IMG/VR virus record: IMGVR_UViG_3300002133_000084
Origin: an uncultured virus (IMG/VR IMGVR_UViG_3300002133_000084)
Taxonomy: Duplodnaviria > Heunggongvirae > Uroviricota > Caudoviricetes
Direction: 5' to 3' (one strand)
DNA: 28,839 nucleotides
Positions within the stretch are counted from its first letter, which is position 1, and each line of letters starts with the position of its first letter. Below, piece after piece: positions 3,743-21,673 of this stretch. Made by a program: the position numbers and the translations under genes. Below the pieces are notes generated by a model. It did no database searches and was not told the DNA's origin. It saw nothing but the letters and a program-made list of their open reading frames with translations.

Positions 3743-6700
3743 ATGCCAAACGCCCAGGATCCAGTTGTCCAGCACCAAATAATGAAGCAGAACGTCGCCG
3801 ACTCCATCGCGGCCCAGTTTCCCTTTGAGGGCAAGCAGAACAAGCTCGTCCTCAACAAGATCTGGACAGAAGACAAGCCCATCGATTTTGAGACAATGAA
3901 AGAGGCCCGATTAAACGATTCCACCATCGCGGCCCCTGTCTATGGAGATGTTTCCCTGTTAGATAAAAACGGCAAGGAGATGTCGCGCACGAAGAAGATG
4001 CGCCTCGCCCAAGTGCCCGTTCCAACACCCCATGGGACATTTCTGGTTAACGGCACGGAGTACCAAATCGCTCAGCAAGAACGACTTAAGCCGGGTGTCT
4101 ACGCTAGGACAACCGCTTCTGGACAGCTACAAGCACAAGTCAACTTGGCCAAGGGAATGAACTTCTCTGTGGGATTAAATCCCGAGCGCAGAAAGCTCGA
4201 AGCGAAGTTCGGCACCGCCAACGTAGGCTTATACGATCTGATGAAGATCATGGGCACTTCGGATGGGGAACTGCAGAAGGCCTGGGGCAAAGAGATCTTG
4301 GACGCCAACCAAGTCTCCAAAGAGAAAGTCAATCAGTCGGCCGCCAAGATTCACAAGGTATTATTTCGCAGGGATCACTCTAATGGAACGGCGCCGGATA
4401 CCGCTGAGGGAATGCAGAAGGAGCTGCGGGATTACTTCTCGGACACCGAGATCGATTCTAAAACTACTGAGCGAACTTTAGGCAAAGGCTTTAAGAAAGT
4501 AACCGCAGATCTATTGGGTAGGACTTCAGAGAAACTGTTAAACATTTCTCGTGGCGATGAAGAAGTCGACAATAGAAATGCGTTGATCTTTAAGAGCTTT
4601 CACGGCCCAGAAGATCAATTAAAGATAAAACTGGATCACTGGAAAACTAAAGGCCCTATTGCTAATACGGTGAAGTGGAAGGTTGATCAGAAGGACGACG
4701 TACGCAAAGTCATCAACAACAAAACCTTCGACAGGGGCGTCGAGGAGTTTTTCACATCGAGCTCACTATCCAATGCGACAGAACAAAACAACCCTCTATC
4801 GATTATTGGCGAAGCTACTAAAAGCACCGTGCTCGGAGAGGGAGGAATATCTAGCTCGCGAGCGGTGCCCGACGATGCGCGTAACCTCGAATCCACTAGC
4901 CTCGGATTCATGGATATGGTGCACACTCCTGAATCCGATCGTGTGGGTATTACTCTACACACTGGCGTTGATACTATTCGTGAAGGTAACATCCTAAAGA
5001 CGGCCGTAAGAGAAAGAGCTACTAATCGCGCGCGCCACATCGATCCCGAGGAGATGTTTGACTCTATTGTAGCCTTCCCCGATCAATTTACCGGCAACAA
5101 GGCTAAGTCTAGTGAAGTCAAGGGCATATACCAAGGACGAATGGGGACGTTCAAGGCTTCGGATGTAAAATTCATCTTGGACAGGGCGCAGGGCATGTTC
5201 GACATGTCCACTAATATGATTCCCTTTCTTGGCTCTACTCAGCCGACACGCGGGTTAACAGCTTCTAAGCAGTCTGAGCAATCGGTTTCTCTTATTGAGA
5301 GAGAAGCCCCCCTCGTACAGATTGCTACGGGCAAGGGTAAAACCTTCGAACAGGAAGTGGGTGAACAGTATTCCTGGCGTGCGCCTATTGATGGAGTCGT
5401 TGAGGAAATTAAAGATGGGATGATGGTAATAAAGAACGGGCGCAAGACGGAAAAGCTCGTCCTACCCAATAACTATCCCTTAAACCAGAAGACGTTCATC
5501 CACGCCGAGATGAAGGTGAATGTTGGGGATAAAATCAAGAAAGGCGATCTCCTAGCCGACACCAACCACACCAAGGATGGCGTGTTGGCTTTGGGAAGAA
5601 ACCTGTCTGTTGCCTATATGCCCTATAAAGGCCTCAACTTCGAAGATGCTGTCGTTATAAGCGAATCGGCCGCCAAGAAGATGACATCGGAGCATCTACA
5701 TCATAAAGATGTGGGCATCGATGAGAACTCGTCGACGGATCTCAAGAAGTTCAGAGCGCATGCGCCTGGCATAATTTCGGACAAGCACGCTGAGAACCTA
5801 ACGGCCGATGGGGTTATTAAGGTTGGGACGAGAGTGGAGCCCGGGGATGTGTTGGTTGCCCATTTACGCGAAGAAGCCATTACCCCAGAAGACAATATGA
5901 TGTCTCGCCTGATGAAGTCGCGCGCGCGTCCGTGGAAGGATCGCTCGGTGACGTGGGACAATGACTTTGGTGGGGTAGTCACAGATATAGCTAAGACTGG
6001 CTCCAAGATAAAGGTGTACGTCAAAACTGAAGAGCCCATGCGTGAGGGTGATAAGATTGTGGGCCGTCATGGTAATAAGGGTATCGTCTCTAAGATTATA
6101 CCCGATGTGGATATGATTAAAGATGAGGCGGGTAATCCGATCGATCTGATCATGGATCCACACGGCGTTCCATCCCGTATCAATGCCGGGCAGATATTAG
6201 AGACGGCCGCAGGCAAAGCGGCTCGCAAGAAGGGTGAGATCTTTGAGGTGGAAAACTTCAAGGGAGATATATCCAATTGGCTCGGAAACGTTAAGGACTA
6301 CCTGAAGGATGCCGGCGTAAAGGATAAGGAGGATGTCTTCGATCCAACTACTAATAGAACGATTCCTGGGATATTAGTGGGAGATCAATATATCACCAAG
6401 CTCAAGCATCAGGTGGAACGCAAGTTTGGCGCGCGTAATATAACAGGCCACGACATCAACTTGCAGCCTAAGGGTGGTAAGTACGGCGCCCAGAGCCTTG
6501 ATCACCTTACACTCTACACCATGCTGGCTCACGATGCGCGCGCGAACATACGAGAAATGAACTCATCTATTAAGTCGGAAAAAAACGACGAGCTATGGCT
6601 GAGATTGCAATCAGGTATGTCTCTACCCAAACCTCAGCCAACCTTCGCCTGGGATAAATTTAAAGGCATGATGACGGGCATGGGGGTAAAGGTGATTCAC

Positions 6701-7009
6701 GAAGGAAATAAGATGGGGCTCACCCCATTGACTGATAGGGATATCGAAAACATATCGCGCGGCGCCATTGAAAATCCCACTAGGGTTGTTGGCCGAGGCG
6801 ATATGCGCCCAGAAAAAGGTGGGCTATTTGATCCAGAGATAACCGGTGGGCTATCTGGCGATCGATGGAGTCATATTGATCTAGCTGAGCCTCTACCCAA
6901 TCCAGTACTGGAAAAGGGGATACTCAGTCTAACGGGGCTGAAGAAGAAGGATTTTGACTCTCTCATATCGGGCGAGCGGCATATAAATGATAAGGGAGAA
7001 TTCGTATGA
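3743..7009 (+). CDS. rpoB: Phage multi-subunit RNA polymerase: beta subunit fused to the N-terminal segment of beta-prime
   Basis: Beta motifs GTFLVNGTE, EQNNPLS, HTPES, MIPFL, ALGRNL, GLNFEDAVVISE, GDKIVGRHGNKG, GVPSRINAGQILE, YITKLKH; the C-terminal ~95 aa (PEKGGLFDPEITG...SHIDLAEP) match the start of beta-prime. ATG 3743 preferred over TTG 3719. Confidence 0.95.
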   Translation: MPNAQDPVVQHQIMKQNVADSIAAQFPFEGKQNKLVLNKIWTEDKPIDFETMKEARLNDSTIAAPVYGDVSLLDKNGKEMSRTKKMRLAQVPVPTPHGTFLVNGTEYQIAQQERLKPGVYARTTASGQLQAQVNLAKGMNFSVGLNPERRKLEAKFGTANVGLYDLMKIMGTSDGELQKAWGKEILDANQVSKEKVNQSAAKIHKVLFRRDHSNGTAPDTAEGMQKELRDYFSDTEIDSKTTERTLGKGFKKVTADLLGRTSEKLLNISRGDEEVDNRNALIFKSFHGPEDQLKIKLDHWKTKGPIANTVKWKVDQKDDVRKVINNKTFDRGVEEFFTSSSLSNATEQNNPLSIIGEATKSTVLGEGGISSSRAVPDDARNLESTSLGFMDMVHTPESDRVGITLHTGVDTIREGNILKTAVRERATNRARHIDPEEMFDSIVAFPDQFTGNKAKSSEVKGIYQGRMGTFKASDVKFILDRAQGMFDMSTNMIPFLGSTQPTRGLTASKQSEQSVSLIEREAPLVQIATGKGKTFEQEVGEQYSWRAPIDGVVEEIKDGMMVIKNGRKTEKLVLPNNYPLNQKTFIHAEMKVNVGDKIKKGDLLADTNHTKDGVLALGRNLSVAYMPYKGLNFEDAVVISESAAKKMTSEHLHHKDVGIDENSSTDLKKFRAHAPGIISDKHAENLTADGVIKVGTRVEPGDVLVAHLREEAITPEDNMMSRLMKSRARPWKDRSVTWDNDFGGVVTDIAKTGSKIKVYVKTEEPMREGDKIVGRHGNKGIVSKIIPDVDMIKDEAGNPIDLIMDPHGVPSRINAGQILETAAGKAARKKGEIFEVENFKGDISNWLGNVKDYLKDAGVKDKEDVFDPTTNRTIPGILVGDQYITKLKHQVERKFGARNITGHDINLQPKGGKYGAQSLDHLTLYTMLAHDARANIREMNSSIKSEKNDELWLRLQSGMSLPKPQPTFAWDKFKGMMTGMGVKVIHEGNKMGLTPLTDRDIENISRGAIENPTRVVGRGDMRPEKGGLFDPEITGGLSGDRWSHIDLAEPLPNPVLEKGILSLTGLKKKDFDSLISGERHINDKGEFV

Positions 7010-8211: not shown

Positions 8212-8787
8212 GTGGCAATAGGTGGATACTCCTATGCATCTACGCAGATCAATCTTCCGGCTGATATCACAGAGAGGATACAGGAGTGGAGTCGCGAGTT
8301 TATACCAGACTCTCATTTGTATCACAGTGATGACGATACGCATGGCCGCCGCCCGGATAGTCATGTAACCGTTCTGTATGGACTGGAATCAGATAACTCT
8401 GGCGATGTAGCGGAAAAACTTAAGGGATTCGGCCCCATATCTTTCAATTTGGGTAAGATTTCCACATTTGAATGTGAAAAGTACGATGTGGTTATCATCG
8501 AGGTGGACGGGGAGAGGTTACATAAAGCCAACAGTATTCTACGTGAGCTGCCCAATCAAAACACCTTCCCGGACTATAAGCCACACGTTACTATAGCCTA
8601 CGTAAAAAAGGGGCTTGGATCTAAGTATTTAGGCAATGAAACGTTTGCTGGCACCAAAATAGAGTCGAGTGGCATTGTGTTTTCTGGATCTGATGGCGGC
8701 AAGGTAGTCATACACATCGATCCCCCAGATGGGTTTGACATGTTCTCCTCTGCATTCTCCAGGGAATTAGAATCCTCCTTGAAATAA
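8212..8787 (+). CDS. 2H phosphoesterase (T4 gp57B / Acb1-like, 2'-5' RNA ligase superfamily)
   Basis: Two HxT motifs, SHVTVLYG and YKPHVTIAYV, about 73 aa apart; GGAGG RBS before the GTG. Confidence 0.85.
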   Translation: MAIGGYSYASTQINLPADITERIQEWSREFIPDSHLYHSDDDTHGRRPDSHVTVLYGLESDNSGDVAEKLKGFGPISFNLGKISTFECEKYDVVIIEVDGERLHKANSILRELPNQNTFPDYKPHVTIAYVKKGLGSKYLGNETFAGTKIESSGIVFSGSDGGKVVIHIDPPDGFDMFSSAFSRELESSLK

Positions 8788-8867: not shown

Positions 8868-9110
8868 CTGGGACAGGCACAAATATTATATGATAATTCG
8901 ACAGATTTAAACTATTCTGAGCTGGCCGAATCTTCAGAGAGTATTCGAATATGCGGAGATAGGGTATTTGTAGACGGTGGACTTGAGTTGCGGGACATCG
9001 CCTCCGCTTCTATATCTGGATCGTCCGACGCATATCTGGGGATATTAACTTTTAATAATGGCTCCCAGGTTATATGCAATATATCATCTATTGAGATTGA
9101 TATTAAATGA
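8868..9110 (+). CDS. Hypothetical 80-aa protein with CTG start (missing from the ORF track)
   Basis: Open frame 8868-9110; AGGAGG RBS 8 nt before the CTG; in-frame TAG at 8853 excludes an upstream start; stop overlaps the next ATG (ATGA). Confidence 0.55.
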   Translation: MGQAQILYDNSTDLNYSELAESSESIRICGDRVFVDGGLELRDIASASISGSSDAYLGILTFNNGSQVICNISSIEIDIK

Positions 9111-9391
9111 CTGAAAATATTAGCCTTACAGCACTGATGGAGGGGGATGACATTATTCCCTACTACTCTGATTTACTCGGAGAAGAAGTTATGTTAGCTG
9201 GCAATAAAGCTGACATACCCGATGATGGTAAGGTTTATTATCGAGTCTCCGAATTGCAACAATTAAAGGGAATGGATCCAGATCATGTGAAAAAAATACA
9301 CATGGTAAAGAGAGTATTTTCTGGATCCATCGCACTATTTGCATCATGTATTCCCATGTACTATACTGTTGGTGCATGCTTTAATGTTTAA
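9107..9391 (+). CDS. Hypothetical phage protein
   Basis: S.LLGEEV....Y..SEL..L....IH.VKR.F.G pattern resembles small phage proteins; translationally coupled. Confidence 0.65.
   Translation: MTENISLTALMEGDDIIPYYSDLLGEEVMLAGNKADIPDDGKVYYRVSELQQLKGMDPDHVKKIHMVKRVFSGSIALFASCIPMYYTVGACFNV
9339..9367 (+). promoter_or_regulatory. Sigma70-like promoter, ATGTAC-TATA class
   Basis: TTGCAT-17 nt-TATACT with ATGTAC immediately 5' of the -10. Confidence 0.6.
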
Positions 9392-9405
9392 TGTCTCTTT
9401 TGGTT
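9390..9405 (+). promoter_or_regulatory. Operator-like 16-mer AATGTCTCTTTTGGTT (copy 1)
   Basis: Identical copies at 11978-11993 (-) and 27857-27872 (+), each next to a promoter. Confidence 0.65.
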
Positions 9406-10113
9406 CACATGAATATAATTGGTATAGGACATAAGGCGCGGCGCGGTAAAGATGCCGCCGCTATATATCTGAGCAAAAAATATGAACTGGCACATCTATC
9501 GTTTGCTGCTAGCGTATACGATGAGTGCAGATCTGTTTTTGTTCACTATAAAACATATTTGCCGGATATAGAGATGCTGTCCATCTTCTGCCCATCGGTT
9601 GACTTGGCCCCCAATGTATATGTCAGAGGGGGACATACCTCTATTGAGGGTAATATTCACAATCTGTTAGATTTAGTCTTGGCGTGGATAACTGATGTGG
9701 GCGAGTTGACTCATTTTTCTGGCGGCTGCGAGCAGTGGGATTACCGCGGTATGAAGCAGAAGGACAGCAGGCTATTGCAGTGGTATGGCAATGATTACCG
9801 CAGGGAATTGTTTGGGCACGACTACTGGATTAATAAGGTGGACGCCCAGATCAATGAATTGAGTGGGGCTGTAAATGGTGTGGTTCTAGCCGACATGCGC
9901 TACAAGAACGAGGCTCGCTACATCAAATACAAGGGTGGAACGTGCTGGAAGGTGCATAGAGATGAGCCACTGGAGGACACAGGCCGCGATCCCAACCACA
10001 TCTCTGAGATAGATTTGGATAATTGGAACTTTGATTATGTAATACACAATGACAAAGATCTGATCAACCTATATGTGCGAGCAGATGAGTGCTATTTGAA
10101 GGCGACTAAATGA
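9391..10113 (+). CDS. Deoxynucleoside monophosphate kinase (T4 gp1 / T5 dnk-like)
   Basis: IIGIGHKARRGKD P-loop, LSFA, RLLQWYGNDYRR, VLADMRYKNE, HISE..LD; the true start may be ATG 9409. Confidence 0.88.
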   Translation: MSLLVHMNIIGIGHKARRGKDAAAIYLSKKYELAHLSFAASVYDECRSVFVHYKTYLPDIEMLSIFCPSVDLAPNVYVRGGHTSIEGNIHNLLDLVLAWITDVGELTHFSGGCEQWDYRGMKQKDSRLLQWYGNDYRRELFGHDYWINKVDAQINELSGAVNGVVLADMRYKNEARYIKYKGGTCWKVHRDEPLEDTGRDPNHISEIDLDNWNFDYVIHNDKDLINLYVRADECYLKATK

Positions 10114-10667
10114 GTTCCACCTACTCACAGCTCGCCAGTATGATGTCTGGTAAAAAAGTAAAGGCGGCGGCCAAGCCGACAAGGGTTGGAAAGAAGGTGG
10201 ATGTCACAGTGGGAGAGGATGTATTTCCACTCTTTTTAGAGATTCCGTTAGCGCCTATCGTCAAAAAGAATAGTCGCCCAATTTTTATAAATAAAACAAC
10301 GGGCAAGCCATTTATAGGTAAATCTGACGAACTGAGGGATTGGGAGAAGGATGCAGAGGATCACCTTAGATCTCAGTTGGCTAAAAAGGGGCTGGCAGAT
10401 CTAAAGTTAGATATACCACTTCTGTGCACCATGTTCATTTATAGGGCGCAGTCTTCCTCTAGTCCGGGGGATCTATCGAACTACGTTGAAGCCCCTCAGG
10501 ATGCAATGGAAAAGGCTGGGGTAATGGATAACGATCGCCGCATTCGTAGCCTGGATGGTACTCGATTATTGCAGGACAAGCGCCCGCGCATAGAAATACT
10601 ACTATGGCCCCTGGAGAAATGTCCATACGCAATTGACGTGGAGGAGCATTTCGATGGAGCTCGGTGA
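10110..10667 (+). CDS. rusA: RusA-family Holliday junction resolvase
   Basis: KKNS motif; GDLSNYVEAPQDAMEKAGVMDNDRRI matches the RusA DxDN...D.L...G...DD pattern; PRIEI at the C-terminus. Confidence 0.85.
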   Translation: MSSTYSQLASMMSGKKVKAAAKPTRVGKKVDVTVGEDVFPLFLEIPLAPIVKKNSRPIFINKTTGKPFIGKSDELRDWEKDAEDHLRSQLAKKGLADLKLDIPLLCTMFIYRAQSSSSPGDLSNYVEAPQDAMEKAGVMDNDRRIRSLDGTRLLQDKRPRIEILLWPLEKCPYAIDVEEHFDGAR

Positions 10668-10854
10668 TCATCACGATTTGGCAAATCGATTATTAGAGAG
10701 AAGATTGCGATTATTAGAGAGAAGATTGAGGAAAAAGGCCGCCAGTAATTCAGTTCCTGAGTGTAATAAAGTTGAGCTACCCATATCGGCAGAATTTACC
10801 GTCGACGGAGGAGAACCACAAACAGCTCCCATTATAAGGGCAGAAGCAAAGTGA
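10654..10854 (+). CDS. Small hypothetical protein
   Basis: ATG 10654 after GGAGGAG; contains a duplicated RLLERRL; stop overlaps the next GTG. Confidence 0.5.
   Translation: MELGDHHDLANRLLERRLRLLERRLRKKAASNSVPECNKVELPISAEFTVDGGEPQTAPIIRAEAK
10687..10728 (+). repeat. Exact 21-bp tandem duplication
   Basis: CGATTATTAGAGAGAAGATTG x2. Confidence 0.9.
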
Positions 10855-11402
10855 ACGATATGTTCGACGAATCATTTGAATATCAATTGAAAATTGCAGC
10901 CTCTTTTGGCAAGGGAATATTAGCCGGGGCCGATATTACCGGCGAGATGCCGCTAGAAATGGGCGTTGATGCGCGCCGCTCAGATAATGGCGATATGAAG
11001 AATATTGCAATTGGCGGTGGAATACTGGGAGGGCTTGTAACTGGGCCAGCTACCCCCGCCTTGGTTCATGGAACCAATAAAATGAATAGGGCGGCCAATA
11101 GTCTTCCAAAAGGTACCAGCATGTCAAAAAGGCTTAGTGTTCGTGCGAAGGCCTTTGCCAATGGAACCGTGGATGGATTTAAGGATGCATACAAGGCTCC
11201 ATTTAAAAAGGGCATTGGCAAGGGTGGCAGAATAGAAGCCCTGGTTCCATTTATACTTGGCGCGGCAAGTCAGGCTGCCATGTCTGCCAATCAATATCGC
11301 CTAGGGAGAAAGATGCGCAATAAAGTAGAGTCTGATGTTGCAGCTAAGGGGTTTTCTGGGTGGTGGAGACGACAGATGGAAGCTGTTCCAAAAATAGATT
11401 AG
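10851..11402 (+). CDS. Gly/Ala-rich basic protein with glycine-zipper-like segment, candidate ejected virion protein
   Basis: SFEYQLKIAA N-terminal motif; IAIGGGILGGLVTG; no Cys. Confidence 0.7.
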   Translation: MNDMFDESFEYQLKIAASFGKGILAGADITGEMPLEMGVDARRSDNGDMKNIAIGGGILGGLVTGPATPALVHGTNKMNRAANSLPKGTSMSKRLSVRAKAFANGTVDGFKDAYKAPFKKGIGKGGRIEALVPFILGAASQAAMSANQYRLGRKMRNKVESDVAAKGFSGWWRRQMEAVPKID

Positions 11403-11411
11403 GGGGGCACA

Positions 11412-11897
11412 ATGATTCCTTGGCGGTATTCGATTTCTAGGGGTGAAGGGCATTGCGATCCTATTTCCCTGGAGAAAACAGACGACTATTTCCCCAGATT
11501 TTATGAGTGGATGACATTCTTCTCATCGTGTGAGTTTGTGAAAATGATACCCGGCATGTATGCCAGATGTATGGTTGTGTCGGATGATATGTGTGTGAAA
11601 TTTGATCCATCTGGAGAGATAACACGTCCAGAAATAAAATTTGGCGAATATTTTGTATATCAGGCCGTGGTTGCCCTGTCTTCTCCTGATGACGATTGGC
11701 AGAAGAGGATGCATAGCATGGGATACCATTATATGATGGACGGGGGCGATGTAAATAAGACGGCTGCCATAGTTATGCTGGAGGGCGATCTAAACTGCGA
11801 GGTTCTGGGAGACACGGTAGTGGTGTGTGGCCCGCGCGCGGAGCAGGATAGAAGTAAATACGATAAGATATCTAAGAAAAGTATCGCCCCAGAGTAA
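11412..11897 (+). CDS. Hypothetical protein
   Basis: 161-aa ORF with G-rich RBS. Confidence 0.65.
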   Translation: MIPWRYSISRGEGHCDPISLEKTDDYFPRFYEWMTFFSSCEFVKMIPGMYARCMVVSDDMCVKFDPSGEITRPEIKFGEYFVYQAVVALSSPDDDWQKRMHSMGYHYMMDGGDVNKTAAIVMLEGDLNCEVLGDTVVVCGPRAEQDRSKYDKISKKSIAPE

Positions 11898-11914
11898 AAA
11901 AGTGCTCAATCATG

Positions 11915-11943
11915 TTGCAATCAGTTCACATATGTACTATATA
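11915..11943 (+). promoter_or_regulatory. Sigma70-like promoter, ATGTAC-TATA class
   Basis: TTGCAA-17 nt-TATATA with ATGTAC directly upstream of the -10. Confidence 0.6.
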
Positions 11944-11972
11944 TGTAGGTACTGGTTTGCTTTTACCTTTTA

Positions 11973-12629
11973 ATGTTAACCAAAAGAGACATTATGAAGC
12001 CAGGTGCTCGTAGAACATACAATGATGACGATTTTACTAAGGGTGGATTCGGCGAGCGGCTTTTTGAGCTCGATCTCGAGCGACAAAACGCCAACTACCT
12101 CCCTTTCCATATGTACACACAAGACGGTGCTCCTTTAGCCATTATAAATGGAAAAAAATACATAGCACCCGACTTCTTTCTATTTCGATCGGATAAGAAA
12201 GAGATTGCGCGCTGGGTTGAAGTAAAAACCAAGATGTCTGCAGACTACACGCGCAAAGAAAAGAGATACGATCATGGTGTGGACGCATACAACGTAGAGC
12301 AGTACATGCAGGTGGCGCGCGCATCGGGCAAAGAGGTGTACTTAGCCGTATTCGAACTTAAGCCCACCCTAACCCTCCTTATTCGCAAGCTGTCTACCCT
12401 GATGAATCTAGAGGGGACATTGGCGCCGCGCCGCGGATACACGATTAGGCGGGATGACGAGGATCAAATCAAGACTCCTATGATCTACTTCCCAAGGGAT
12501 GGCTTTAAGGAAGTAGATCCACCTAATCCAGGGGTATTAAATGAGAATGACTACGACAACAAAGAAGTAAAGCGGATTATCATAGAAGGCCGCAGCACAC
12601 TAAAACAGGGAGAGTTGTTTAATGCCTAA
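11973..12629 (+). CDS. PD-(D/E)XK superfamily nuclease
   Basis: G..GE helix, IAPDFFLF, WVEVKTK; the start may be ATG 11994. Confidence 0.75.
   Translation: MLTKRDIMKPGARRTYNDDDFTKGGFGERLFELDLERQNANYLPFHMYTQDGAPLAIINGKKYIAPDFFLFRSDKKEIARWVEVKTKMSADYTRKEKRYDHGVDAYNVEQYMQVARASGKEVYLAVFELKPTLTLLIRKLSTLMNLEGTLAPRRGYTIRRDDEDQIKTPMIYFPRDGFKEVDPPNPGVLNENDYDNKEVKRIIIEGRSTLKQGELFNA
11978..11993 (-). promoter_or_regulatory. Operator-like 16-mer (copy 2, inverted)
   Basis: AACCAAAAGAGACATT is the reverse complement of AATGTCTCTTTTGGTT. Confidence 0.65.
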
Positions 12630-13107
12630 AATTGGAAGCGCCGTAAAGTGGGGCGGAATAGATGCCCTTGTCATTGGTGAAAATGACGACGGCACCGTAG
12701 ATGTATCAGCAGTAGCAAAAGTCCTAAACGATAGTTGCGAAACGCACATTACGATCGTGGGGCGCACCCAGGACTTGAAGGACGGCCCGAAGGAGATGCA
12801 GGTAATCGATCAGAGAAAGGGTGCTCCGATTGAAAAAACGGAAGAAGAGCCCGCGGCCGAAGAGGCTAAATTGGATACAGAGGTGGAAGAAGCAGGGGAG
12901 CCTGAGGGCGATAGTACATCTTCCGAGTCAGACGGAGCGCAAGTTGTCGTCGGGGGAGAAGATGACGAAGCTGGAGCGGACACACCTGAAGAGGGTGAAA
13001 CTGCGAGCGAGGTTGGCTCCGCTAAGCCATTGGAGCCCATGGAAGACACGCTCAACGACAATGTCGAACCGGTAAGTAAGAGCGGACGCCGGAAGAAGAA
13101 TAAGTAA
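12622..13107 (+). CDS. Hypothetical protein, small beta domain plus acidic disordered tail
   Basis: E/D-rich low-complexity C-terminal half ending in a basic tip; GGGGAG RBS. Confidence 0.7.
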   Translation: MPKIGSAVKWGGIDALVIGENDDGTVDVSAVAKVLNDSCETHITIVGRTQDLKDGPKEMQVIDQRKGAPIEKTEEEPAAEEAKLDTEVEEAGEPEGDSTSSESDGAQVVVGGEDDEAGADTPEEGETASEVGSAKPLEPMEDTLNDNVEPVSKSGRRKKNK

Positions 13108-13535
13108 TGATTCCCGAAGAATACCCCCTCTTATCGGTGGGGAGTAAAAATGACATCGACACCATTCTGGGTGAGCGCAAAAAAGTTATTGCGCGCCAGA
13201 TGGATCACCTAATTGTCATGTGGGACAAGGTGAAGATTCATATGCTGGCAAATGAGCAGTCTGGACAACTAGTTTACAGCTCAGTCGATAGTGTGGGATT
13301 TATTGCACTCCTTGAGGTTGACTTAACATTCAAGGTTGGCAAGCTACTTTGGAAGACTGATAAGGATGGCTTCATTGAGCCCGGAGAGCACATTAACATA
13401 TTCTTCAAATTGATACGGAATCAGCAAGACGAGCATTTCTTGGGATGGCTGGCCGATCTTTACTCCCAGATAGCGATAAACGCCCTGATGGGGAATAATC
13501 AGGTAAACGCTCGATTTGTATTCGAGGATAGATAA
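13107..13535 (+). CDS. Hypothetical protein
   Basis: 142-aa ORF coupled by a TAATG overlap. Confidence 0.7.
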   Translation: MIPEEYPLLSVGSKNDIDTILGERKKVIARQMDHLIVMWDKVKIHMLANEQSGQLVYSSVDSVGFIALLEVDLTFKVGKLLWKTDKDGFIEPGEHINIFFKLIRNQQDEHFLGWLADLYSQIAINALMGNNQVNARFVFEDR

Positions 13536-13910
13536 GGCGGGAACCGAATCTCTCGCCCAACTGAACGCCGTGATTCGGAGTGGGGAATCAGCCAGTATTC
13601 CCCGGGTGGCCAACATAATAGAGAAGCACAATTCTGGCCTAGTTACACAAAGTTGTTGCATCGTCGGATAGCACTGGAAGTGCACCACACACGGGCCGAC
13701 GCTCAAGTATGCGAAGTATCGTTAGCGGTTCTGGGAGACTGATCTAGGAGCTGGGGTTAGAAGGGCATATGAGCCCACCCCTTTGGGATATAAACACTTG
13801 GTAACAGGTGTACCATTGCTGAGCTGGATACCAATCGCGGGGGAACTGAAAGTGTGGATGCGGGTAGCTGGGCCCGGGGAAAGCCCAGACAACTGTGTGT
13901 AACTAGAATA
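13536..13910 (+). ncRNA. Candidate large structured non-coding RNA (unassigned)
   Basis: No credible CDS; 17/18-bp closing helix 13639-13656/13889-13906; internal hairpins incl. ACACTTG-GTAA-CAGGTGT (GNRA loop) and CTGGGC/GCCCAG; directly precedes tRNA-fMet. Confidence 0.55.
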
Positions 13911-13915
13911 ATTTT

Positions 13916-13990
13916 CGCGGGGTGGCGCAAAGGTAGCGCGTCGGGCTCATAACCCGAAGGTTGGCGGTTCAAGTCCGCTCCCCGCTTCCA
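13916..13990 (+). tRNA. tRNA-fMet (initiator, anticodon CAT)
   Basis: CGCGGGG acceptor with unpaired C1, anticodon arm TCGGG-CTCATAA-CCCGA with three G-C pairs, GGTTCAAGTCC T-arm, encoded CCA. Confidence 0.95.
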
Positions 13991-13993
13991 TAT

Positions 13994-14157
13994 GCCAACA
14001 GCTTACGAGCACCGCACAGATAAAGCGGGTTGGCGGAGGGGCACTCTCCTCTCATTAAACAATCGCTCGGGACAGAGAACTCCGATGGCAAGGCCATTGA
14101 AATATGAGGTTAAAATCCTCTCGGCAAGTGGCGGTATGCGAAATCCCGAAGTGCCCT
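13994..14157 (+). ncRNA. Structured inter-tRNA element (unassigned)
   Basis: GCCAAC/GTTGGC; GGGCAC/GTGCCC; TCGGGA/TCCCGA; internal GAGG-TTAAAAT-CCTC T-arm-like hairpin. Confidence 0.4.
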
Positions 14158-14162
14158 TTAAT

Positions 14163-14237
14163 GCCGGTATAGCTGAGTTGATTTAGCACTCCCCTTGTAA
14201 GGGAGATACGGGGGTTTGAATCCCTCTACCGGCTCCA
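14163..14237 (+). tRNA. tRNA-Thr (anticodon TGT)
   Basis: GCCGGTA/TACCGGC acceptor, CTCCC-CTTGTAA-GGGAG anticodon arm, encoded CCA; T-loop is TTTGAAT. Confidence 0.9.
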
Positions 14238-14243
14238 AGATTG

Positions 14244-14545
14244 ATGCGTCCTCTTAGTGGTTCTGCAGTCGGGGTTTCATCGCCTCGTTAGTACTCCTAC
14301 CACGATCAGGTGGCCACTGCAGGCTTCCCGGTTATCAGGGGCACATCATACCGGAAGGCCCTGTGCAACTATGTCGTCGAGGGGTCAACGACTGTGCAAG
14401 GCCTTCCGGACACAAATTGCCGAACAGATATGGCAACCAACCATCGGAAAGAGTCGGCCATAGGCGCAGCGAGTGAAGGGAATAAGCGATTGGGCCGGTA
14501 CCCTGATTGCCCTGCAAACACACATGTAGCTCGCCCGCCTTGATA
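14244..14545 (+). ncRNA. Candidate structured non-coding RNA (unassigned)
   Basis: CTGCAGT/ACTGCAG; perfect CCGGAAGGCC (14351-60)/GGCCTTCCGG (14400-09); long-range ATCAGGG/CCCTGAT; no credible CDS. Confidence 0.5.
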
Positions 14546-14614
14546 ACTAACCCACCCCAAATAGGGTGGAGACAGAAGAACTGATATCACCTACTCTAAA
14601 AGGATATAGCTATC

Positions 14615-15241
14615 ATGGCTTGGGGTGATAAACATATGCGCTATCAGCGCATGGAAGAAGTATTGGGAGTTGACGATCTGGCCAGTGGCTTGATCACTCC
14701 CGCAGTAAACGAAGGTGGCGCTGCCACATTCGCCGCAGGTGCTTTGTTGGTTGATTCGCTCGCCGGCAATGTCATCACCAAAGAGATTGGCACCTTGGGT
14801 ATTCAGGGCCTTTCGTTTGAAGCTGCGGGCGCGCACTTGCGCTTCGCATGGGATGTCCCCAGTTACGTCGACACTCAGAGAAATCTCGGTATCAAAGTAC
14901 GCTGGGCGACGAATTCGGTTACGGATGCCGACGACATTCACTGGGTTGCACTGCATGGCATGATCGCCGACGGCGAAGCATTGGCTGCTCCGGCAACCGT
15001 GCTCGACACGGCTATCGCCGCTGAGACGGTGGGTGCGGGCGCTGCATTGGCTCGCCACACAAGCCCCCGTGGTGTCATTTTAGCTTCGAAGATCAGCGCT
15101 GGCGATACGGCCATCTTTGATCTCGAGCTCGATGTCTGCGATGCAGACGTTGGTGCAACGGAAAGCGTCTGGCTGACAGGCGTAGTCTTGGACTTCGTGC
15201 CCCGTTTTATGAAGGGTGACGCGCGCTCCACGTTAGTGTAA
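14615..15241 (+). CDS. Probable virion structural protein (beta-rich, decoration-like)
   Basis: Ala/Val/Thr-rich with beta-strand pattern (LRFAWDVP, IKVRW, VWLTGVVLDF); AGGA RBS; followed by a strong terminator. Confidence 0.6.
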   Translation: MAWGDKHMRYQRMEEVLGVDDLASGLITPAVNEGGAATFAAGALLVDSLAGNVITKEIGTLGIQGLSFEAAGAHLRFAWDVPSYVDTQRNLGIKVRWATNSVTDADDIHWVALHGMIADGEALAAPATVLDTAIAAETVGAGAALARHTSPRGVILASKISAGDTAIFDLELDVCDADVGATESVWLTGVVLDFVPRFMKGDARSTLV

Positions 15242-15244
15242 AAG

Positions 15245-15287
15245 AATAGCCCGGGCGCTAATGTGGCGTCCGGGCTATTTCCTATTT
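15245..15287 (+). terminator. Rho-independent terminator
   Basis: AATAGCCCGGGCGCTA-ATG-TGGCGTCCGGGCTATT then TCCTATTT. Confidence 0.7.
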
Positions 15288-15336
15288 AAGAAAACAACAA
15301 CGATAGAAGCCGTAACCGGCGGAACGTATACATATA

Positions 15337-18156
15337 ATGGCCGAAGATCTAAAAACTGGTGGCGCAGCCATCCAACACCTCCTATCCAAAATCGACACCA
15401 ACAGTCGTATAGGGGAGATCGAGGGCGAATTAAAAACTGCCCGCGGCACTAATCGTACTAAGCTTAATCGTGAGCTAGGATACCTAAAGGCCCTCAAGGA
15501 ATCTGGCGACACAGCAGACAAAGCATACATCATTAATAAGGTTCCCGTACTTCCCCCTTCTATGCGCCCCGTCTATACAAATGAGAAGGGGCAGCTTGTC
15601 GTATCAGACGTCAATGAGCTCTATCAGGGCATGGGCGCCGTTAATGAGCAGCTTACCAGCTTAAAGGACTTACCCGATTCAGAAAAGAAGGCCCTTAGAA
15701 AAGATTTGTATGATGGACTCAAGGCTATTCAAGGCCTGGGCGATCCCATATCCCACAAACAATCCCTCAAGGGTATCTTCCGCCAAATTGCCGGCACTAA
15801 TAGTCCGAAGGGTGGCTACTTTCAGCACCGGTTGACGCGCCGCCGGCAGAATGTATCCGGCCGATCGACAATCACCCTGGGTGAAGATTTAGATATTGAT
15901 CAGGTAGGACTGCCGGAAGAAATGGCGTGGACGCTGTTTCGTGATTTTACCGTAAAAGAACTGGTGTCTAATGGACACACCAAGGCGGATGCGCTCGAGC
16001 AAATAAAAGATCGCACATCCACAGCAGAGAAGGCGCTGCAGCACGCAATGAATCAGCGCCCAGTATGGCTTAATAGATCACCATCCCTGCATCGCCATTC
16101 TATCATGGCGTTCAATCCCGTATTAACACCGGGGAGAGATATAAAGATTAATCCACTCGTCGTAAAAGGCTTCAATGCCGACTTCGACGGCGATAGTATG
16201 TCTGTCCATGTACCCGTCACAAGAGAGGCGGTGGATGAGGCTAAAGTGCGAAAGCCAACGGATATCTTATTCTCGGCTGGTACGGAAAAACTAATGCTCG
16301 TGCCAGGCCAAGCTTCCGCCTTGGGCCTCTACCTAATGTCCAACACAGACGGAGAGGTAGTGGGTGAATTCAAAAATGAGAAAGAGGCGCTTGCAGAGAG
16401 CAGGGCTAATACCATACGCGATGAAGACACGATTCTCGTTAATGGCAAGAAGACTACTGCGGGACGCATTAAAATTGATGAGCAAATCCCAGAAGGATTC
16501 CGGGAATACGGAACATTAAACAAAAAGAATCTGGAAAAGATGCTTTCTGATATTGCCGTGTCCCGCCCAAAGGATTATGGTGGCATCGTTGGCAAGCTGC
16601 GCAAGATGGGCGATGAGTATGCCACTAATAGGGGATTTTCCATTGGACTAGACGATTTGGATCCCCTAACTGGAATGCGCGATCAGATGTTATCTGATGC
16701 AGACAAAAAGATCCAAAAAGGTTCGATTGGGAAGACAGAGAAAGAAAAGGATGCCCTATTCTCTGAGGTATATGGGGAAGTGGCATCCAAGATGGAGGAT
16801 GAGATTGGCAAGACACTAGCCAACTCAGATAACTCTGTTGGGCACATGCTCATCTCTGGATCCAGAGGATCCGCTGCGCAGGCGCGGCAAATCTTCGCTG
16901 CTCCCCTACTTGCCCAGGATGCATCAGGTAGGCCTATCCCCATTCCTATTAAGAACTCTTATATGGAGGGATTAGATACACAGGAATACTTCGCCGCCGG
17001 CTATGGCGCGCGCGCTGGTGCTGTGGGTAGATCACATCAAACTGCTCTACCTGGAGCCTTGGCAAAAGAGGTTCTAGCCTCTGTTGTGGATTCTGTAGTT
17101 ACAGAACACGAGTCCGAAGACATGCCATCTCTAAAGATGAGCACCAAGCGACAGGATGATGATTTAGTAGATCGATTCCTGGCCGCCGATGTCAGCGGCA
17201 AGGGAGGCAGGAAGGTTGCCAAGAAGGGAGATCTGCTCACCTCCGCAAAGTTATCTAGGCTGCGGGAGGAGGGCGTATCTGATGTCGACGTCTACACTCC
17301 ATTAAATGCTGAATTACCTGGAGGCGGCATACCCGCCAAGGCGTTTGGACTAGATGAGAATGGCAAGATTCCTGACATAGGCACCAACCTTGGATTACTG
17401 TCTGGCCACTCCATGACGGAACCGATCAGCCAAATGACATTGGACGCATTTCACTCTGGCGCTACCGGTGGAACGAAGGGGCGCGTATCCAAGTTCGATC
17501 GCATCCAGCAGTTATTCCAATTGCCCAAAGCTCTTCCCGGGAAAGCTACCCTAGCAAAGAAGGATGGGCGGATTGGTGCAGTAAGGGATTCTCCTGCTGG
17601 CGGCTGGGATGTAGAGATAGGCGGAGATACTCACTATGTGCCCAAGGGCAATCCACTCAAGATAAAAGAGGGTGATGCAGTAAGGGCTGGCGAAGCTATA
17701 TCAGATGGCCCAATACAGCCACATGAACTCTTGGAGATCAAAGGGCTGCCGGCCGTACAAGAATACCTTACGGACGAAATCCAAAAAGAAACAGGCGTCA
17801 AGCGTCGCTGGGTGGAAACAGTGGTGGGCGCTATGACGAGTATGTCCGAAGTAGATGATCCGGGCGATTCTGAATTTTACCCCGGAGACTCAGTGCCCAA
17901 TTGGGCTATCCGCAAGCACAACAAAGATCCACAAACAACCAACATACAAGCCAAGCCCATCTTCAAGGGCGTCAATATGCTTCCACTAGTAAAGGCGGGA
18001 GACAACTGGCTGGCAGGCATGGATTTCAGGCGCCTAAAGGACGTCATATCGGAAGGAGCCCTAAATAACAAGTGGAGCGAGCTGAGTAGTGTGAACCCCA
18101 TACCAGCAGTTGCATACGGAGCCGATTTTGGCCTCGGAGAAAAAGGGAGGTACTAA
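15337..18156 (+). CDS. rpoC: Phage multi-subunit RNA polymerase, beta-prime subunit lacking its N-terminal segment
   Basis: Catalytic FNADFDGD (NADFDGD at 16174-16194), VPVLPPSMRP, SGRSTI, LNRSPSLHR, SGSRGS, YGARAG bridge helix, EPISQMTLDAFHSG trigger loop. Confidence 0.96.
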   Translation: MAEDLKTGGAAIQHLLSKIDTNSRIGEIEGELKTARGTNRTKLNRELGYLKALKESGDTADKAYIINKVPVLPPSMRPVYTNEKGQLVVSDVNELYQGMGAVNEQLTSLKDLPDSEKKALRKDLYDGLKAIQGLGDPISHKQSLKGIFRQIAGTNSPKGGYFQHRLTRRRQNVSGRSTITLGEDLDIDQVGLPEEMAWTLFRDFTVKELVSNGHTKADALEQIKDRTSTAEKALQHAMNQRPVWLNRSPSLHRHSIMAFNPVLTPGRDIKINPLVVKGFNADFDGDSMSVHVPVTREAVDEAKVRKPTDILFSAGTEKLMLVPGQASALGLYLMSNTDGEVVGEFKNEKEALAESRANTIRDEDTILVNGKKTTAGRIKIDEQIPEGFREYGTLNKKNLEKMLSDIAVSRPKDYGGIVGKLRKMGDEYATNRGFSIGLDDLDPLTGMRDQMLSDADKKIQKGSIGKTEKEKDALFSEVYGEVASKMEDEIGKTLANSDNSVGHMLISGSRGSAAQARQIFAAPLLAQDASGRPIPIPIKNSYMEGLDTQEYFAAGYGARAGAVGRSHQTALPGALAKEVLASVVDSVVTEHESEDMPSLKMSTKRQDDDLVDRFLAADVSGKGGRKVAKKGDLLTSAKLSRLREEGVSDVDVYTPLNAELPGGGIPAKAFGLDENGKIPDIGTNLGLLSGHSMTEPISQMTLDAFHSGATGGTKGRVSKFDRIQQLFQLPKALPGKATLAKKDGRIGAVRDSPAGGWDVEIGGDTHYVPKGNPLKIKEGDAVRAGEAISDGPIQPHELLEIKGLPAVQEYLTDEIQKETGVKRRWVETVVGAMTSMSEVDDPGDSEFYPGDSVPNWAIRKHNKDPQTTNIQAKPIFKGVNMLPLVKAGDNWLAGMDFRRLKDVISEGALNNKWSELSSVNPIPAVAYGADFGLGEKGRY

Positions 18157-18157
18157 G

Positions 18158-19066
18158 ATGGATGAAGTATCTATTTACATGCATGATCTAGGGCGCATGC
18201 CCGTCATGTCCTCCAAGGACGAGACGACAGCATTTAGTGCTCTTCGCGAAGGCGATGATTCAATGCGCGAAAAGATAGCGCGCGCGAATCTCAGGTTTGT
18301 TGTCAGCGTGGCGGGGGACTATGCATCAGACTCCTCGTCATTTATGGATCTAGTGCAAGATGGAAACATGGGCCTACTCAAGGCCATTGATAAATTCGAT
18401 CACAATAAAGGGTTCAAGTTTATCACCTATGCCGTGTGGTGGATCCGGAGAAGCATCTTGGATGCCATCCAGAGAGACAGGACGATACGCCTGCCAAAAC
18501 ACGCATATGAGGATATGCGCAGGTGCTCCATCGCCCTCAACGAATACAATAGAGACATACTCAGGGCGGCCAGGGAATCGGTTGAATTATCCGATCAGCG
18601 CGTAGATAATGTGCGCCAGCTATCCAACAATATTATGTCCATCGATTACAATAATGTGGATGACGAGGCGTCCCAATCCAATACCTGGCTTCGCGATGAC
18701 AGCGCCGCCAGAGACATGGAGTATGGGATAGAGATGGATGAGCTTAGGGACAAATTTACAGAGTGCTTTAATCATCTAGATAAGCGCGCATCCTATATCA
18801 TCAAGTCGTATTATGGGCTATGCGGGCATGACGCTTGCACCCTGGAGGCTATTGGCGAGAGGATGAATTTGACGCGCGAGCGCGTTCGGCAAATTAAAAA
18901 GATTGCCCTGCGTCGACTCAAATTGATGATACCTGAGTCGTATCACATCAACTCAGATGAGGCCGAGGTGGACGTCGATGAGCTATTAAAAATCGTCCAA
19001 ATAAATGCCCGTCGCATGGAAAATTACACTGAGGGCTGGGAAGATAAGTCAGCCATAAATGCATAA
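18158..19066 (+). CDS. RNA polymerase sigma factor, RpoD/RpoS-like (sigma70 group 1/2, no region 1.1)
   Basis: Region 1.2 YMHDLG, ANLRFVVSVA, DLVQDGNMGLLKAIDKFD..KGFKFITYAVWWIR, region 4 TLEAIG.RMNLTRERVRQI; ATG 18158 with GGGAGG RBS. Confidence 0.93.
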   Translation: MDEVSIYMHDLGRMPVMSSKDETTAFSALREGDDSMREKIARANLRFVVSVAGDYASDSSSFMDLVQDGNMGLLKAIDKFDHNKGFKFITYAVWWIRRSILDAIQRDRTIRLPKHAYEDMRRCSIALNEYNRDILRAARESVELSDQRVDNVRQLSNNIMSIDYNNVDDEASQSNTWLRDDSAARDMEYGIEMDELRDKFTECFNHLDKRASYIIKSYYGLCGHDACTLEAIGERMNLTRERVRQIKKIALRRLKLMIPESYHINSDEAEVDVDELLKIVQINARRMENYTEGWEDKSAINA

Positions 19067-21466: not shown

Positions 21467-21673
21467 ATGTCTTGGGAGCAACTCATTCAACTGGATCGCA
21501 AGGAGATCCATTCTCATTACCTGAAGGGGGGATGTGCCGATGCTGGCGCCGGCGCTCGAATCGGGATTTCCACAGGGGCTTTCAGGTTATTGCGATGGCT
21601 CAATCGGATTCCCGAGCGAGTCTTTACTGGAATACCTGCCGCTCGTAGACACGATAGTACACGGCGACTTTAA
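21467..21673 (+). CDS. Possible small helix-turn-helix protein overlapping the sigma gene
   Basis: Starts right after the previous stop with GAGAGG RBS; D......IGIS...F...R....IP is HTH-like; 140-bp overlap with the sigma ORF. Confidence 0.4.
   Translation: MSWEQLIQLDRKEIHSHYLKGGCADAGAGARIGISTGAFRLLRWLNRIPERVFTGIPAARRHDSTRRL

What the first reader, a model, noticed from the sequence alone, without database searches (positions are those of the whole stretch)
13534..14541. About 1 kb of ornate non-coding RNA with two embedded tRNAs
Seen: 13536-14614 has no credible CDS but is densely base-paired on both sides of and between tRNA-fMet and tRNA-Thr. AAGGCGGG (13534-41) is complementary to CCCGCCTT (14534-41), which could close the whole region. 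Known: GOLLD and ROOL RNAs are large phage-associated RNAs found near tRNAs, and some GOLLD RNAs contain tRNAs. I cannot match a consensus by eye. Inference: this is one giant RNA or a cluster of three novel RNAs released by tRNA processing.
Basis: partly seen in the sequence, partly recalled or inferred. Interest (0 to 1): 0.72.

Follow-up and report, generated by a model that had tools for sequence, protein, structure and literature searches.

The report
Transcribed tRNA island in a phage
A 1.1-kb gene-free stretch of an uncultured aquatic phage carries two transfer-RNA genes separated by long transcribed spacers, one of which seems to persist as a cut-off leader RNA, but nothing shows that it is one giant ornate RNA.

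Summary
The gap 13536-14614 is real. It has no coding signal in any of six frames. It holds an initiator-like tRNA-Met(CAU) and a tRNA-Thr(UGU). The 'ornate RNA' reading is not supported. No Rfam family other than tRNA matches, even at E<=10 on short stretches, so no GOLLD or ROOL. The three spacers fold little better than shuffles (z -1.55, -2.44, -1.24). Local folding equals that of the flanking genes (mean z -0.59 against -0.59). The proposed 8-bp closing helix is at chance level. Three helices are non-random: an 18-nt long-range inverted repeat at 13639-56/13889-906 and hairpins at 14351-14409 and 14551-14570. The 232 nt inside the repeat fold like random sequence (z -0.19). Metatranscriptome contigs cover the region. 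In 2 of 3 RNA runs the left spacer forms a contig at depth 16-21, against about 3 for neighbouring pieces. One such contig ends at 13915, the base before tRNA-Met, which is the RNase P site. Best reading: a co-transcribed phage tRNA island whose 5' leader survives processing. No homologues could be fetched, so covariation is untested.

The parts
13107..13535 (+). Upstream ORF (142 aa, no family). Its 3' part (from 13294) lies in the same high-depth RNA contig as the left spacer.
   Evidence: Positive in-frame codon score. Only identical proteins found. Run X9 has a contig at 13294-13877.
13523..13915 (+). Left spacer, the tRNA-Met 5' leader. It appears as a discrete 393-nt metatranscriptome contig that ends at the base before the tRNA.
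   Evidence: run X15 record 18, depth 16, 0 differences. Run X9 record 21 covers 13294-13877 at depth 21.1. Fold z is -1.55.
13639..13656 (+). 5' arm of the 18-nt long-range inverted repeat (helix I1).
13889..13906 (+). 3' arm of helix I1. It ends 9 nt before tRNA-Met.
   Evidence: The enclosed 13657-13888 has z -0.19.
13916..13990 (+). tRNA-Met(CAU), initiator-like. C1 faces U72, the anticodon stem has three G-C pairs, and CCA is encoded.
   Evidence: 63.2 bits. The features were read from the sequence.
13991..14162 (+). Spacer between the two tRNAs (172 nt).
   Evidence: z -2.44, 3 of 200 shuffles as good. No Rfam match. Partly covered by an RNA contig at 14028-14167.
14163..14237 (+). tRNA-Thr(UGU), with CCA encoded.
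   Evidence: 62.3 bits.
14238..14614 (+). Right spacer, which is the trailer of tRNA-Thr and the 5' UTR of the next ORF.
   Evidence: z -1.24. No Rfam match. An RNA contig at 14156-14495 spans tRNA-Thr and this spacer at depth 4.1.
14351..14409 (+). Long near-perfect hairpin (about 23 bp).
   Evidence: I3; z -4.14. It folds at least as well on the - strand.
14551..14570 (.). Short G+C-rich hairpin. The scan flags it as terminator-like on the - strand only.
   Evidence: window 14521-14640: z -3.37 on +, -4.70 on -.
13534..13541 (+). It is present but at chance level.
14534..14541 (+). It is present but at chance level.
14615..15241 (+). Downstream ORF (208 aa). It belongs to an unnamed family of about 200-aa proteins.
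   Evidence: 273 representatives at E<=0.001. No Pfam or PHROG match. Positive in-frame codon score.

Best explanation
The gap is a tRNA island inside a + strand operon of an uncultured marine or aquatic large phage that encodes its own RNA polymerase beta and beta' subunits and two sigma factors. It is transcribed together with its neighbours. No sigma-70-type promoter or intrinsic terminator was found on the + strand within the gap. Host RNase P cuts at the 5' ends of an initiator-like tRNA-Met and a tRNA-Thr(UGU).

The cut at 13915/13916 releases the upstream RNA, which is the 3' part of the preceding mRNA plus the 380-nt leader. This fragment then outlasts its neighbours. The most likely reason is that an 18-bp long-range helix ends 9 nt from its new 3' end and blocks 3' exonucleases. 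The other two spacers are ordinary transcribed spacer or 5' UTR sequence with a few strong hairpins.

Shown here: no coding signal, two tRNAs, no known RNA family, the three non-random helices, and RNA contigs over the region. Inferred: the strand of the RNA, RNase P as the cause of the contig end, stabilisation by the helix, and any function of the released leader beyond being a stable by-product.
For: The phage context is RNAP beta at 3719-7009, beta' at 15337-18156, and sigma factors at 18110-19066 and 21534-22055. The stretch was found in 20 listed runs of 7 studies labelled marine or aquatic.

All long ORFs from 3719 onward are on the + strand. The scan of 12500-15500 found no + strand promoter-like site. 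Its only + strand terminator-like site lies inside the downstream ORF.

Both tRNAs score well and encode CCA. RNA contigs cover the region. The X15 contig at 13523-13915 (depth 16) ends one base before the tRNA, with no loose end listed there. The X9 contig at 13294-13877 has depth 21.1. Other phage pieces in the same runs have depth 2.7 (X15) and 3 and 3.9 (X9). The DNA run X10 shows no raised depth on the parts it covers, at 2.6-4.

Helix I1 is far above chance and has probability about 0.99 in the ensemble. The domain 13636-13909 has z -3.43. There is precedent in print. T4 makes two small RNAs of unknown role from its tRNA region (passage read in PMC3014915). Spacers of E. coli tRNA operons act as sRNA sponges (passage read in bioRxiv 10.1101/2021.04.25.441314).
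Against: All laid runs are assembled contigs. The tool itself states that contigs cannot show a start, an end, the strand or the level of an RNA, and that depth is a poor measure.

The third RNA run (X12) has no cover at 13257-13931, although it has five other phage pieces at depth 2.6-4.1. All three RNA runs come from one study. No silent stretch was laid as a control for DNA carry-over. 34 pieces were not shown.

The X9 contig ends at 13877 with adapter sequence, not at 13915. The X12 contig at 14156-14495 spans tRNA-Thr unprocessed.

The one variant seen in the leader (13584 G>A, in X9) breaks a predicted G-C pair and shows no compensating change. The interior of the I1 domain folds like random sequence. 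The helix could therefore be a DNA-level repeat rather than an RNA element.
Confidence: 0.5

Rival explanations
1. At least one spacer, most likely the left one, is a functional structured non-coding RNA of a new class. A neighbouring tRNA serves as its 3'-end processing signal. It would be functionally comparable to the large phage RNAs found beside tRNA islands.
For: There are 929 nt of non-tRNA, non-coding sequence in a tightly packed phage. Its G+C is 51-53%, while the other three gaps over 300 nt have 32-38%. Contig depth is raised in 2 of 3 RNA runs, and one contig ends at the RNase P site. A highly significant long-range helix closes a 268-nt domain. GOLLD and ROOL lie near phage tRNA islands, and tRNAs sometimes sit inside GOLLD (passages read in bioRxiv 10.1101/2024.12.08.627333).
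Against: Folding shows no excess except for three helices. No homologue is available, so covariation is unknown. The depth ratio is only 4-8 fold. The high-depth contig in X9 includes 240 nt of coding sequence. The adjacent downstream genes have the same high G+C of 0.53. An uncompensated stem-breaking variant was seen.
Confidence: 0.2
2. The spacers are functionless. They would be decayed remains of earlier tRNA genes or ORFs, or imported filler, transcribed only because they lie in an operon. The depth differences would be assembly noise.
For: Folding equals that of coding flanks. The I1 interior has z -0.19. X12 lacks the left spacer. Contig depth is unreliable, as the tool warns. Short tRNA-like word matches occur (D4, D6 and D10).
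Against: No further tRNA-like hit appears, even at E<=10. No residual coding signal appears in any frame. The three spacers share no similarity with each other or with the rest of the window. Two independent RNA runs agree on raised depth over the same part. An 18-bp near-perfect repeat would not survive neutral decay for long (inference).
Confidence: 0.17
3. The 18-nt inverted repeat acts at the DNA level. It could be the ends of a small mobile insertion or invertible segment, or paired protein-binding sites around the tRNA-Met promoter region. It would not be an RNA helix.
For: A near-perfect repeat flanks an interior with no folding excess. The fold is equally good on both strands (z -3.43 and -3.63). 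The right arm overlaps a TAGAAT word 7 nt upstream of the tRNA (read).
Against: The repeat is unique in the window, with only the 2 arms matching at <=3 mismatches. I saw no target-site duplication when reading the flanks. No recombinase or transposase turned up among 35 ORFs scanned with Pfam. Both RNA contigs that cross it show the reference orientation, and no joint was reported there. Both arms lie on one abundant RNA, so they will pair in any case (inference).
Confidence: 0.08
4. The region is a divergent GOLLD or ROOL RNA with tRNAs in its linker.
For: The setting fits: a phage, beside a Met-tRNA, in a marine sample. This resembles the GOLLD env-38 described in the passage read.
Against: No GOLLD or ROOL hit appeared in four Rfam searches. 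Two of them were on stretches of 416 and 646 nt at E<=10 with the most permissive filters. The same kind of E-value search recovered a group I intron at 57.7 bits in locus L003.
Confidence: 0.02
5. The gap hides small protein genes.
For: ORFs of 64, 68 and 77 aa exist on the + strand.
Against: They use GTG starts and have odd composition. None matches a family. The codon score is <= +0.06 in all frames. They overlap the tRNA-Thr gene or the long hairpin.
Confidence: 0.03

Closest known systems
Phage T4 tRNA region with the small stable RNAs RNAC and RNAD
   Same: Both are phage tRNA clusters that also give non-tRNA RNAs of unknown role (passage read in PMC3014915). That those RNAs are released by tRNA-processing enzymes is recalled, not read here.
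   Different: As recalled, the T4 RNAs are only about 120-140 nt. Here the candidate is 390-620 nt and includes mRNA sequence. No T4 sequence was on hand, so similarity was not tested. The phages database search gave only tRNA matches.
Spacer-derived RNAs of bacterial tRNA operons (3'ETS-leuZ and ITS sponges)
   Same: A transcribed tRNA spacer persists after processing and may act in trans (passage read in bioRxiv 10.1101/2021.04.25.441314).
   Different: Those RNAs are short, are cut by RNase E and bind Hfq. Here the surviving piece is a long 5' leader, and no target or partner is known.
GOLLD and ROOL large phage RNAs
   Same: They occur in phages beside tRNA islands, and tRNAs are sometimes embedded in them. 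One GOLLD lies downstream of a marine Met-tRNA.
   Different: No covariance-model match was found. There is no overall folding excess and no family of relatives.
MALAT1/MEN-beta 3'-end formation by RNase P at a tRNA-like element (recalled knowledge)
   Same: RNase P cleavage at a tRNA-shaped element creates the 3' end of an upstream long RNA. A nearby structure then protects that end.
   Different: That system is eukaryotic, uses a tRNA-like decoy and is protected by a triple helix. Here the element is a real tRNA gene and the protection would be a plain 18-bp helix. This is an analogy only. The mascRNA Rfam hit (15.1 bits) only reflects the tRNA shape of tRNA-Thr.

Membership tests
tRNA (Rfam RF00005) | Cloverleaf scoring above the gathering score of 29 bits, with an anticodon called | tested here: met
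   63.2 and 62.3 bits. ARAGORN calls Met(cat) and Thr(tgt).
Bacterial initiator tRNA | Unpaired 1:72 and three consecutive G-C pairs in the anticodon stem (rule recalled) | tested here: met
   The sequence shows C1 opposite U72 and GGG/CCC next to the anticodon loop. The 11:24 pair is C-G, which is the elongator type (the rule for this pair is recalled). I therefore call it 'initiator-like' only.
GOLLD RNA | Match to the Rfam covariance model, in particular to the conserved 3' domain | tested here: not met
   No GOLLD row at the gathering threshold or at E<=10 on 1501, 416 and 646 nt.
GOLLD RNA | Location in a phage or prophage near tRNAs | tested here: met
   Phage gene content and tRNAs inside the region. 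The feature is as described in the passages.
GOLLD RNA | Extensive secondary structure supported by covariation | not testable with these tools
   No homologue was retrievable. Single-sequence folding shows no excess.
ROOL RNA | Match to the Rfam covariance model | tested here: not met
   No ROOL row.
Group I intron (RF00028) | Match to the Rfam model | tested here: not met
   No row for the window. The same search type finds one in L003 at 57.7 bits, which serves as a positive control.
Cyano-2 RNA (RF01702) | Score at or above the gathering score of 40 bits | tested here: not met
   14 bits, E 0.46-1.1, with only the first hairpin aligned.
Stable spacer RNA of a tRNA operon (the T4 RNAC/RNAD or 3'ETS kind) | Transcribed together with the tRNAs | tested here: inconclusive
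   RNA-library contigs cover the spacers, and one spans tRNA-Thr plus its trailer. The strand is unknown and DNA carry-over is not excluded.
Stable spacer RNA of a tRNA operon (the T4 RNAC/RNAD or 3'ETS kind) | Discrete ends made by tRNA-processing nucleases | tested here: inconclusive
   One contig ends at 13915, the base before the tRNA. Contigs cannot prove an RNA end.
Stable spacer RNA of a tRNA operon (the T4 RNAC/RNAD or 3'ETS kind) | Accumulates above the level of neighbouring transcript parts | tested here: inconclusive
   Depth 16 and 21.1 against 2.7-3.9 in 2 of 3 RNA runs, and no cover in the third.

The most novel reading that the evidence does not exclude
The left spacer, about 390-620 nt and ending at 13915, is the first seen member of a new class of phage long non-coding RNA. 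Its 3' end would be made by RNase P cutting at a downstream genuine tRNA and then be locked by a long-range helix. That would be a bacterial-virus counterpart of MALAT1-type 3'-end formation. The RNA would have a trans-acting role during infection, for example as a sponge or decoy.
Probability: 0.15. Interest if true: 0.65.

Novelty: new variant of a known kind. Interest (0 to 1): 0.33.

Why it matters
If the leader is a stable, deliberately made RNA, phages could use their own tRNA genes as processing signals to make long non-coding RNAs. That would add a route of ncRNA biogenesis beside the GOLLD and ROOL type, in a little-known lineage of marine or aquatic phages that carry their own RNA polymerase and sigma factors. 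As the evidence stands, the result is mainly corrective. A long ORF-free, G+C-rich tract around phage tRNAs is not in itself evidence of an ornate RNA. Here, single-sequence folding does not separate the tract from coding sequence.

Tried and rejected
Homologue searches were all empty for the spacers.
- blastn of 13400-14750 against 50,697 phage records hit 28 records, all on the tRNAs only.
- The flanking 208-aa protein found no loci in viral contigs or metagenome contigs.
- Its 48%-identical relative P0005 found none in viral contigs.
- A 20-mer of tRNA-Thr had 0 hits in viral contigs, metagenome contigs and genome contigs.
- A 24-mer of tRNA-Met had 0 hits in genome contigs.
- The upstream 142-aa protein finds only itself.
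- The beta' subunit gave two distant loci, L001 (37%) and L002 (30%). Neither has tRNAs beside the gene.
- Vibrio phage D181, the best named relative at 29%, has no tRNA annotated within 9 kb either side of its match.
- BLAST of the region against the two whole IMG/VR records matched only a tRNA-Met.
- No whole genome is held for the window.
- The earlier-findings index had nothing.

Alternative genetic codes (TAG=Q, code 4) gave no convincing ORF.

The three spacers are not paralogues of each other or of anything else in the window or the loci.

The 9-mer core of the repeat is not a recurrent motif. It has 8 matches at <=1 mismatch against 3.8 expected, and 5 of 100 shuffles reach 8.

The stretches without RNA cover are not used as evidence. 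These are X12 at 13257-13931 and all three RNA runs at 13257-13293. The same holds for the runs with small shares.

The Cyano-2, mir-140, SprD, TCV_H5, IS009, U6atac and Plastid-ycf2 rows are all far below their gathering scores and were rejected as chance or tRNA look-alikes.

I did not consult any paper's supplements.
Full report
WHAT THE WINDOW IS

The 28.8-kb window looks like part of a large uncultured phage. It encodes a bacterial-type RNA polymerase beta subunit (3719-7009; Rpb2 domain 6, E 1e-61) and a beta' subunit (15337-18156). It also encodes two sigma-70-family proteins (18110-19066 and 21534-22055), a dNMP kinase, a RusA resolvase, a primase zinc ribbon, a 2H-phosphoesterase/Acb1-like protein and an AAA ATPase. 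From 3719 onward the long ORFs are on the + strand and often overlap by a few bases. No whole genome is held. The upstream protein occurs on contigs of up to 152,839 bases. The stretch occurs nearly identically in 20 listed public runs from 7 studies labelled marine or aquatic metagenome. The closest retrievable relatives are distant. Their beta' identity is 37% for IMG/VR locus L001, where beta and beta' are fused into one 2040-aa ORF. It is 30% for L002 and 29% for Vibrio phage D181.

THE OBSERVATION

The gap 13536-14614 (1079 nt) is real. ARAGORN and Rfam agree on tRNA-Met(CAT) at 13916-13990 and tRNA-Thr(TGT) at 14163-14237, at 63.2 and 62.3 bits. Both genes encode CCA. The Met tRNA has C1 opposite U72 and three G-C pairs next to the anticodon loop. 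By the recalled rule these are initiator features.

The rest of the gap is non-coding by every test I could run:
- The longest + strand ORFs are 51-77 aa.
- TAG=Q and code 4 open nothing convincing.
- Of 12 small ORFs, 0 match Pfam at E<=1, and the best PHROG E-value is 0.26.
- A codon-usage log-odds score trained on 24 other ORFs of the window is positive in the right frame of both held-out flanking ORFs. It is <= +0.06 in all six frames throughout the gap.

IS IT ORNATE?

No known RNA family matches. At Rfam gathering thresholds only the two tRNAs appear. At E<=10, on 1501 nt and again on 416 and 646 nt where the filters are most permissive, the extra rows fall into two groups. Some are tRNA look-alikes on the tRNAs themselves. 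The others score 10.8-15.7 bits against gathering scores of 33-117. GOLLD and ROOL do not appear at all. The same kind of search found a group I intron at 57.7 bits in another locus, so weak sensitivity is not the reason.

Folding energies are unremarkable. The left spacer has z -1.55 (8 of 100 shuffles as good). The middle spacer has z -2.44 (3 of 200). The right spacer has z -1.24 (12 of 100). I also folded 120-nt windows every 60 nt over 9001-18960 on both strands, with 25 shuffles each. The 16 + strand windows inside the gap have mean z -0.59. That is exactly the mean of the 145 windows in flanking coding sequence (Mann-Whitney p 0.43). The five windows wholly in the left spacer range from +2.16 to -0.85.

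However, the region contains 16 perfect complementary 8-mer pairs, and shuffles give 8.6 on average. The helix is not in the minimum-energy fold. It would also have to hold together pieces that tRNA processing separates.

Three elements are above chance:
1. An 18-nt inverted repeat at 13639-13656 and 13889-13906, with 17 of 18 positions complementary. It is unique in the window, and 0 of 100 shuffles gave two copies. Its pair probability is about 0.99. It gives the domain 13636-13909 a z of -3.43 on the + strand and -3.63 on the - strand. The 232 nt it encloses fold like random sequence (z -0.19; 91 of 200 shuffles as good). The helix ends 9 nt before tRNA-Met.
2. A hairpin of about 23 bp at 14351-14409 (z -4.14).
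3. A short G+C-rich hairpin at 14551-14570.

Composition gives a mixed signal. The three spacers have 51-53% G+C. The other three gaps over 300 nt have 32-38%, and the genes average 47%. The genes just downstream are equally G+C-rich at 0.53.

IS IT TRANSCRIBED, AND AS WHAT?

Of the 20 listed runs, four are on record as RNA (X9, X12, X15, X17). All four belong to one study. I laid three of them (X9, X12, X15) plus one DNA run (X10) on 11000-17000. All are assembled contigs. The tool warns that contigs cannot show ends, strand or level, and that DNA may be present in RNA libraries. With that caveat:

- X15 holds a 393-nt contig that matches 13523-13915 without a difference, at depth 16. Its only other phage piece (13088-13256) has depth 2.7.
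- X9 holds a contig over 13294-13877 at depth 21.1, followed by adapter sequence. Its other phage pieces have depth 3 and 3.9.
- X12 has five phage pieces at depth 2.6-4.1. One of them spans tRNA-Thr and the right spacer (14156-14495). X12 has nothing over 13257-13931.
- The DNA run has depth 2.6-4 on the pieces it covers and shows no excess.

The X15 contig stops at 13915, the base before the tRNA's first base. By my reasoning about 31-mer assembly, which is inference, sharing of tRNA sequence with other organisms would end a contig inside the tRNA and not before it. A real shortage of reads crossing 13915/13916 is therefore the simplest cause. That is what RNase P cleavage would produce.

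Against over-reading this evidence: it is one contig in one run. The X9 contig ends elsewhere. The high-depth RNA in X9 includes 240 nt of the upstream ORF. The single variant in the leader (13584 G>A in X9) breaks a predicted G-C pair and shows no compensating change.

HOW IT MOST LIKELY WORKS

I read the gap as a tRNA island inside a polycistronic + strand transcript. The scan of 12500-15500 found no + strand sigma-70-type promoter. Its only + strand terminator-like site lies inside the next ORF. The phage's own sigma factors may use other promoters.

RNase P cuts at the tRNA 5' ends. The fragment upstream of tRNA-Met then carries an 18-bp duplex 9 nt from its 3' end, which should slow 3' exonucleases. 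This would explain why that fragment, including the 3' part of the upstream mRNA, is over-represented. Whether the fragment does anything further is open. It could act as a sponge, a decoy or an RNase III substrate.

There is precedent for both outcomes. T4 makes two small RNAs of unknown role from its tRNA region (passage read in PMC3014915). E. coli tRNA-operon spacers act as sRNA sponges (passage read in bioRxiv 10.1101/2021.04.25.441314). I give this reading 0.5.

The rivals are:
- a genuinely new structured ncRNA (0.2);
- functionless filler with noisy depth (0.17);
- a DNA-level role for the repeat (0.08);
- small proteins (0.03);
- a divergent GOLLD or ROOL (0.02).

COMPARISON WITH WHAT IS KNOWN

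The setting resembles that of GOLLD and ROOL. Those RNAs lie near phage tRNA islands, tRNAs sometimes sit in the GOLLD linker, and one marine GOLLD lies downstream of a Met-tRNA (passages read in bioRxiv 10.1101/2024.12.08.627333). Membership fails on the one defining feature I could test, the covariance model. The closest functional analogues are tRNA-region stable RNAs and spacer-derived RNAs. MALAT1-type 3'-end formation by RNase P is a recalled analogy only.

WHAT IS MISSING

Covariation could not be tested. Every route to homologous loci came back empty, and the tool that would fetch the contigs of the 48-58% identical relatives of the downstream protein is closed. Raw-read end mapping was not available because all the runs laid were kept as contigs.

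VERDICT

The feature is real. Interest is moderate to low unless end mapping and homologues show a discrete, conserved leader RNA.

Noticed in passing
L003 875-1167 (- strand), flanks about 1170-1200 and 800-875: A complete 171-kb IMG/VR phage (G002, beta' 30% identical) has a tRNA cluster Pro, Thr(TGT), Met(CAT), Asn. After it comes a group I intron (RF00028, 57.7 bits against a gathering score of 50). The flanks of the intron read like the two halves of a further tRNA that ARAGORN did not call. About 430 ORF-free bases and a strong terminator-like hairpin follow.
   Followed up: partly
L001 2683-8805: In the closest retrievable relative, the RNA polymerase beta and beta' subunits are one 2040-aa ORF. 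In the window they are separate genes 8.3 kb apart, with the tRNA island and about 15 ORFs between them.
   Followed up: no
window 13958-14028: One RNA contig of run X9 (depth 3.9) joins 13958 to 14028. It skips 69 nt, which are the 3' half of tRNA-Met plus 37 nt, at a 9-nt direct repeat. The DNA run laid is continuous there. It could be a reverse-transcriptase template switch or a deletion variant.
   Followed up: no
window 13256-13294: Contigs of two RNA runs (X12, X15) both end at 13256, and the high-depth X9 contig begins at 13294. A DNA contig runs through this stretch. It is either an RNA boundary inside ORF 13107-13535 or a strain-variable spot that breaks assemblies. All these runs come from one study.
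   Followed up: no
window 8212-8787 and 269-811 (-): One ORF is a 2H-phosphoesterase that matches the 2'-5' RNA ligase superfamily and the anti-CBASS Acb1 family (E 1e-9 and 2e-7). Another ORF is an AAA_33 kinase-like protein. They may be RNA-repair or anti-defence genes.
   Followed up: no
window 18110-19066 and 21534-22055: The window has two separate sigma-70-family genes (regions 2 and 4) downstream of beta'.
   Followed up: no
window 9121-9240 (+): This is the strongest local fold in the 10 kb scanned (z -4.92, + strand only). It lies at the start of ORF 9107-9391, just after an AT-rich 319-nt gap.
   Followed up: no
window 14615-15241: The 208-aa protein downstream of the island belongs to a sizeable unnamed family of about 200-aa proteins. 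It has 273 representatives at E<=0.001 and 81 at E<=1e-10. Neither the window protein nor any of the 26 aligned members matches PHROGs, and the window protein has no Pfam match.
   Followed up: partly
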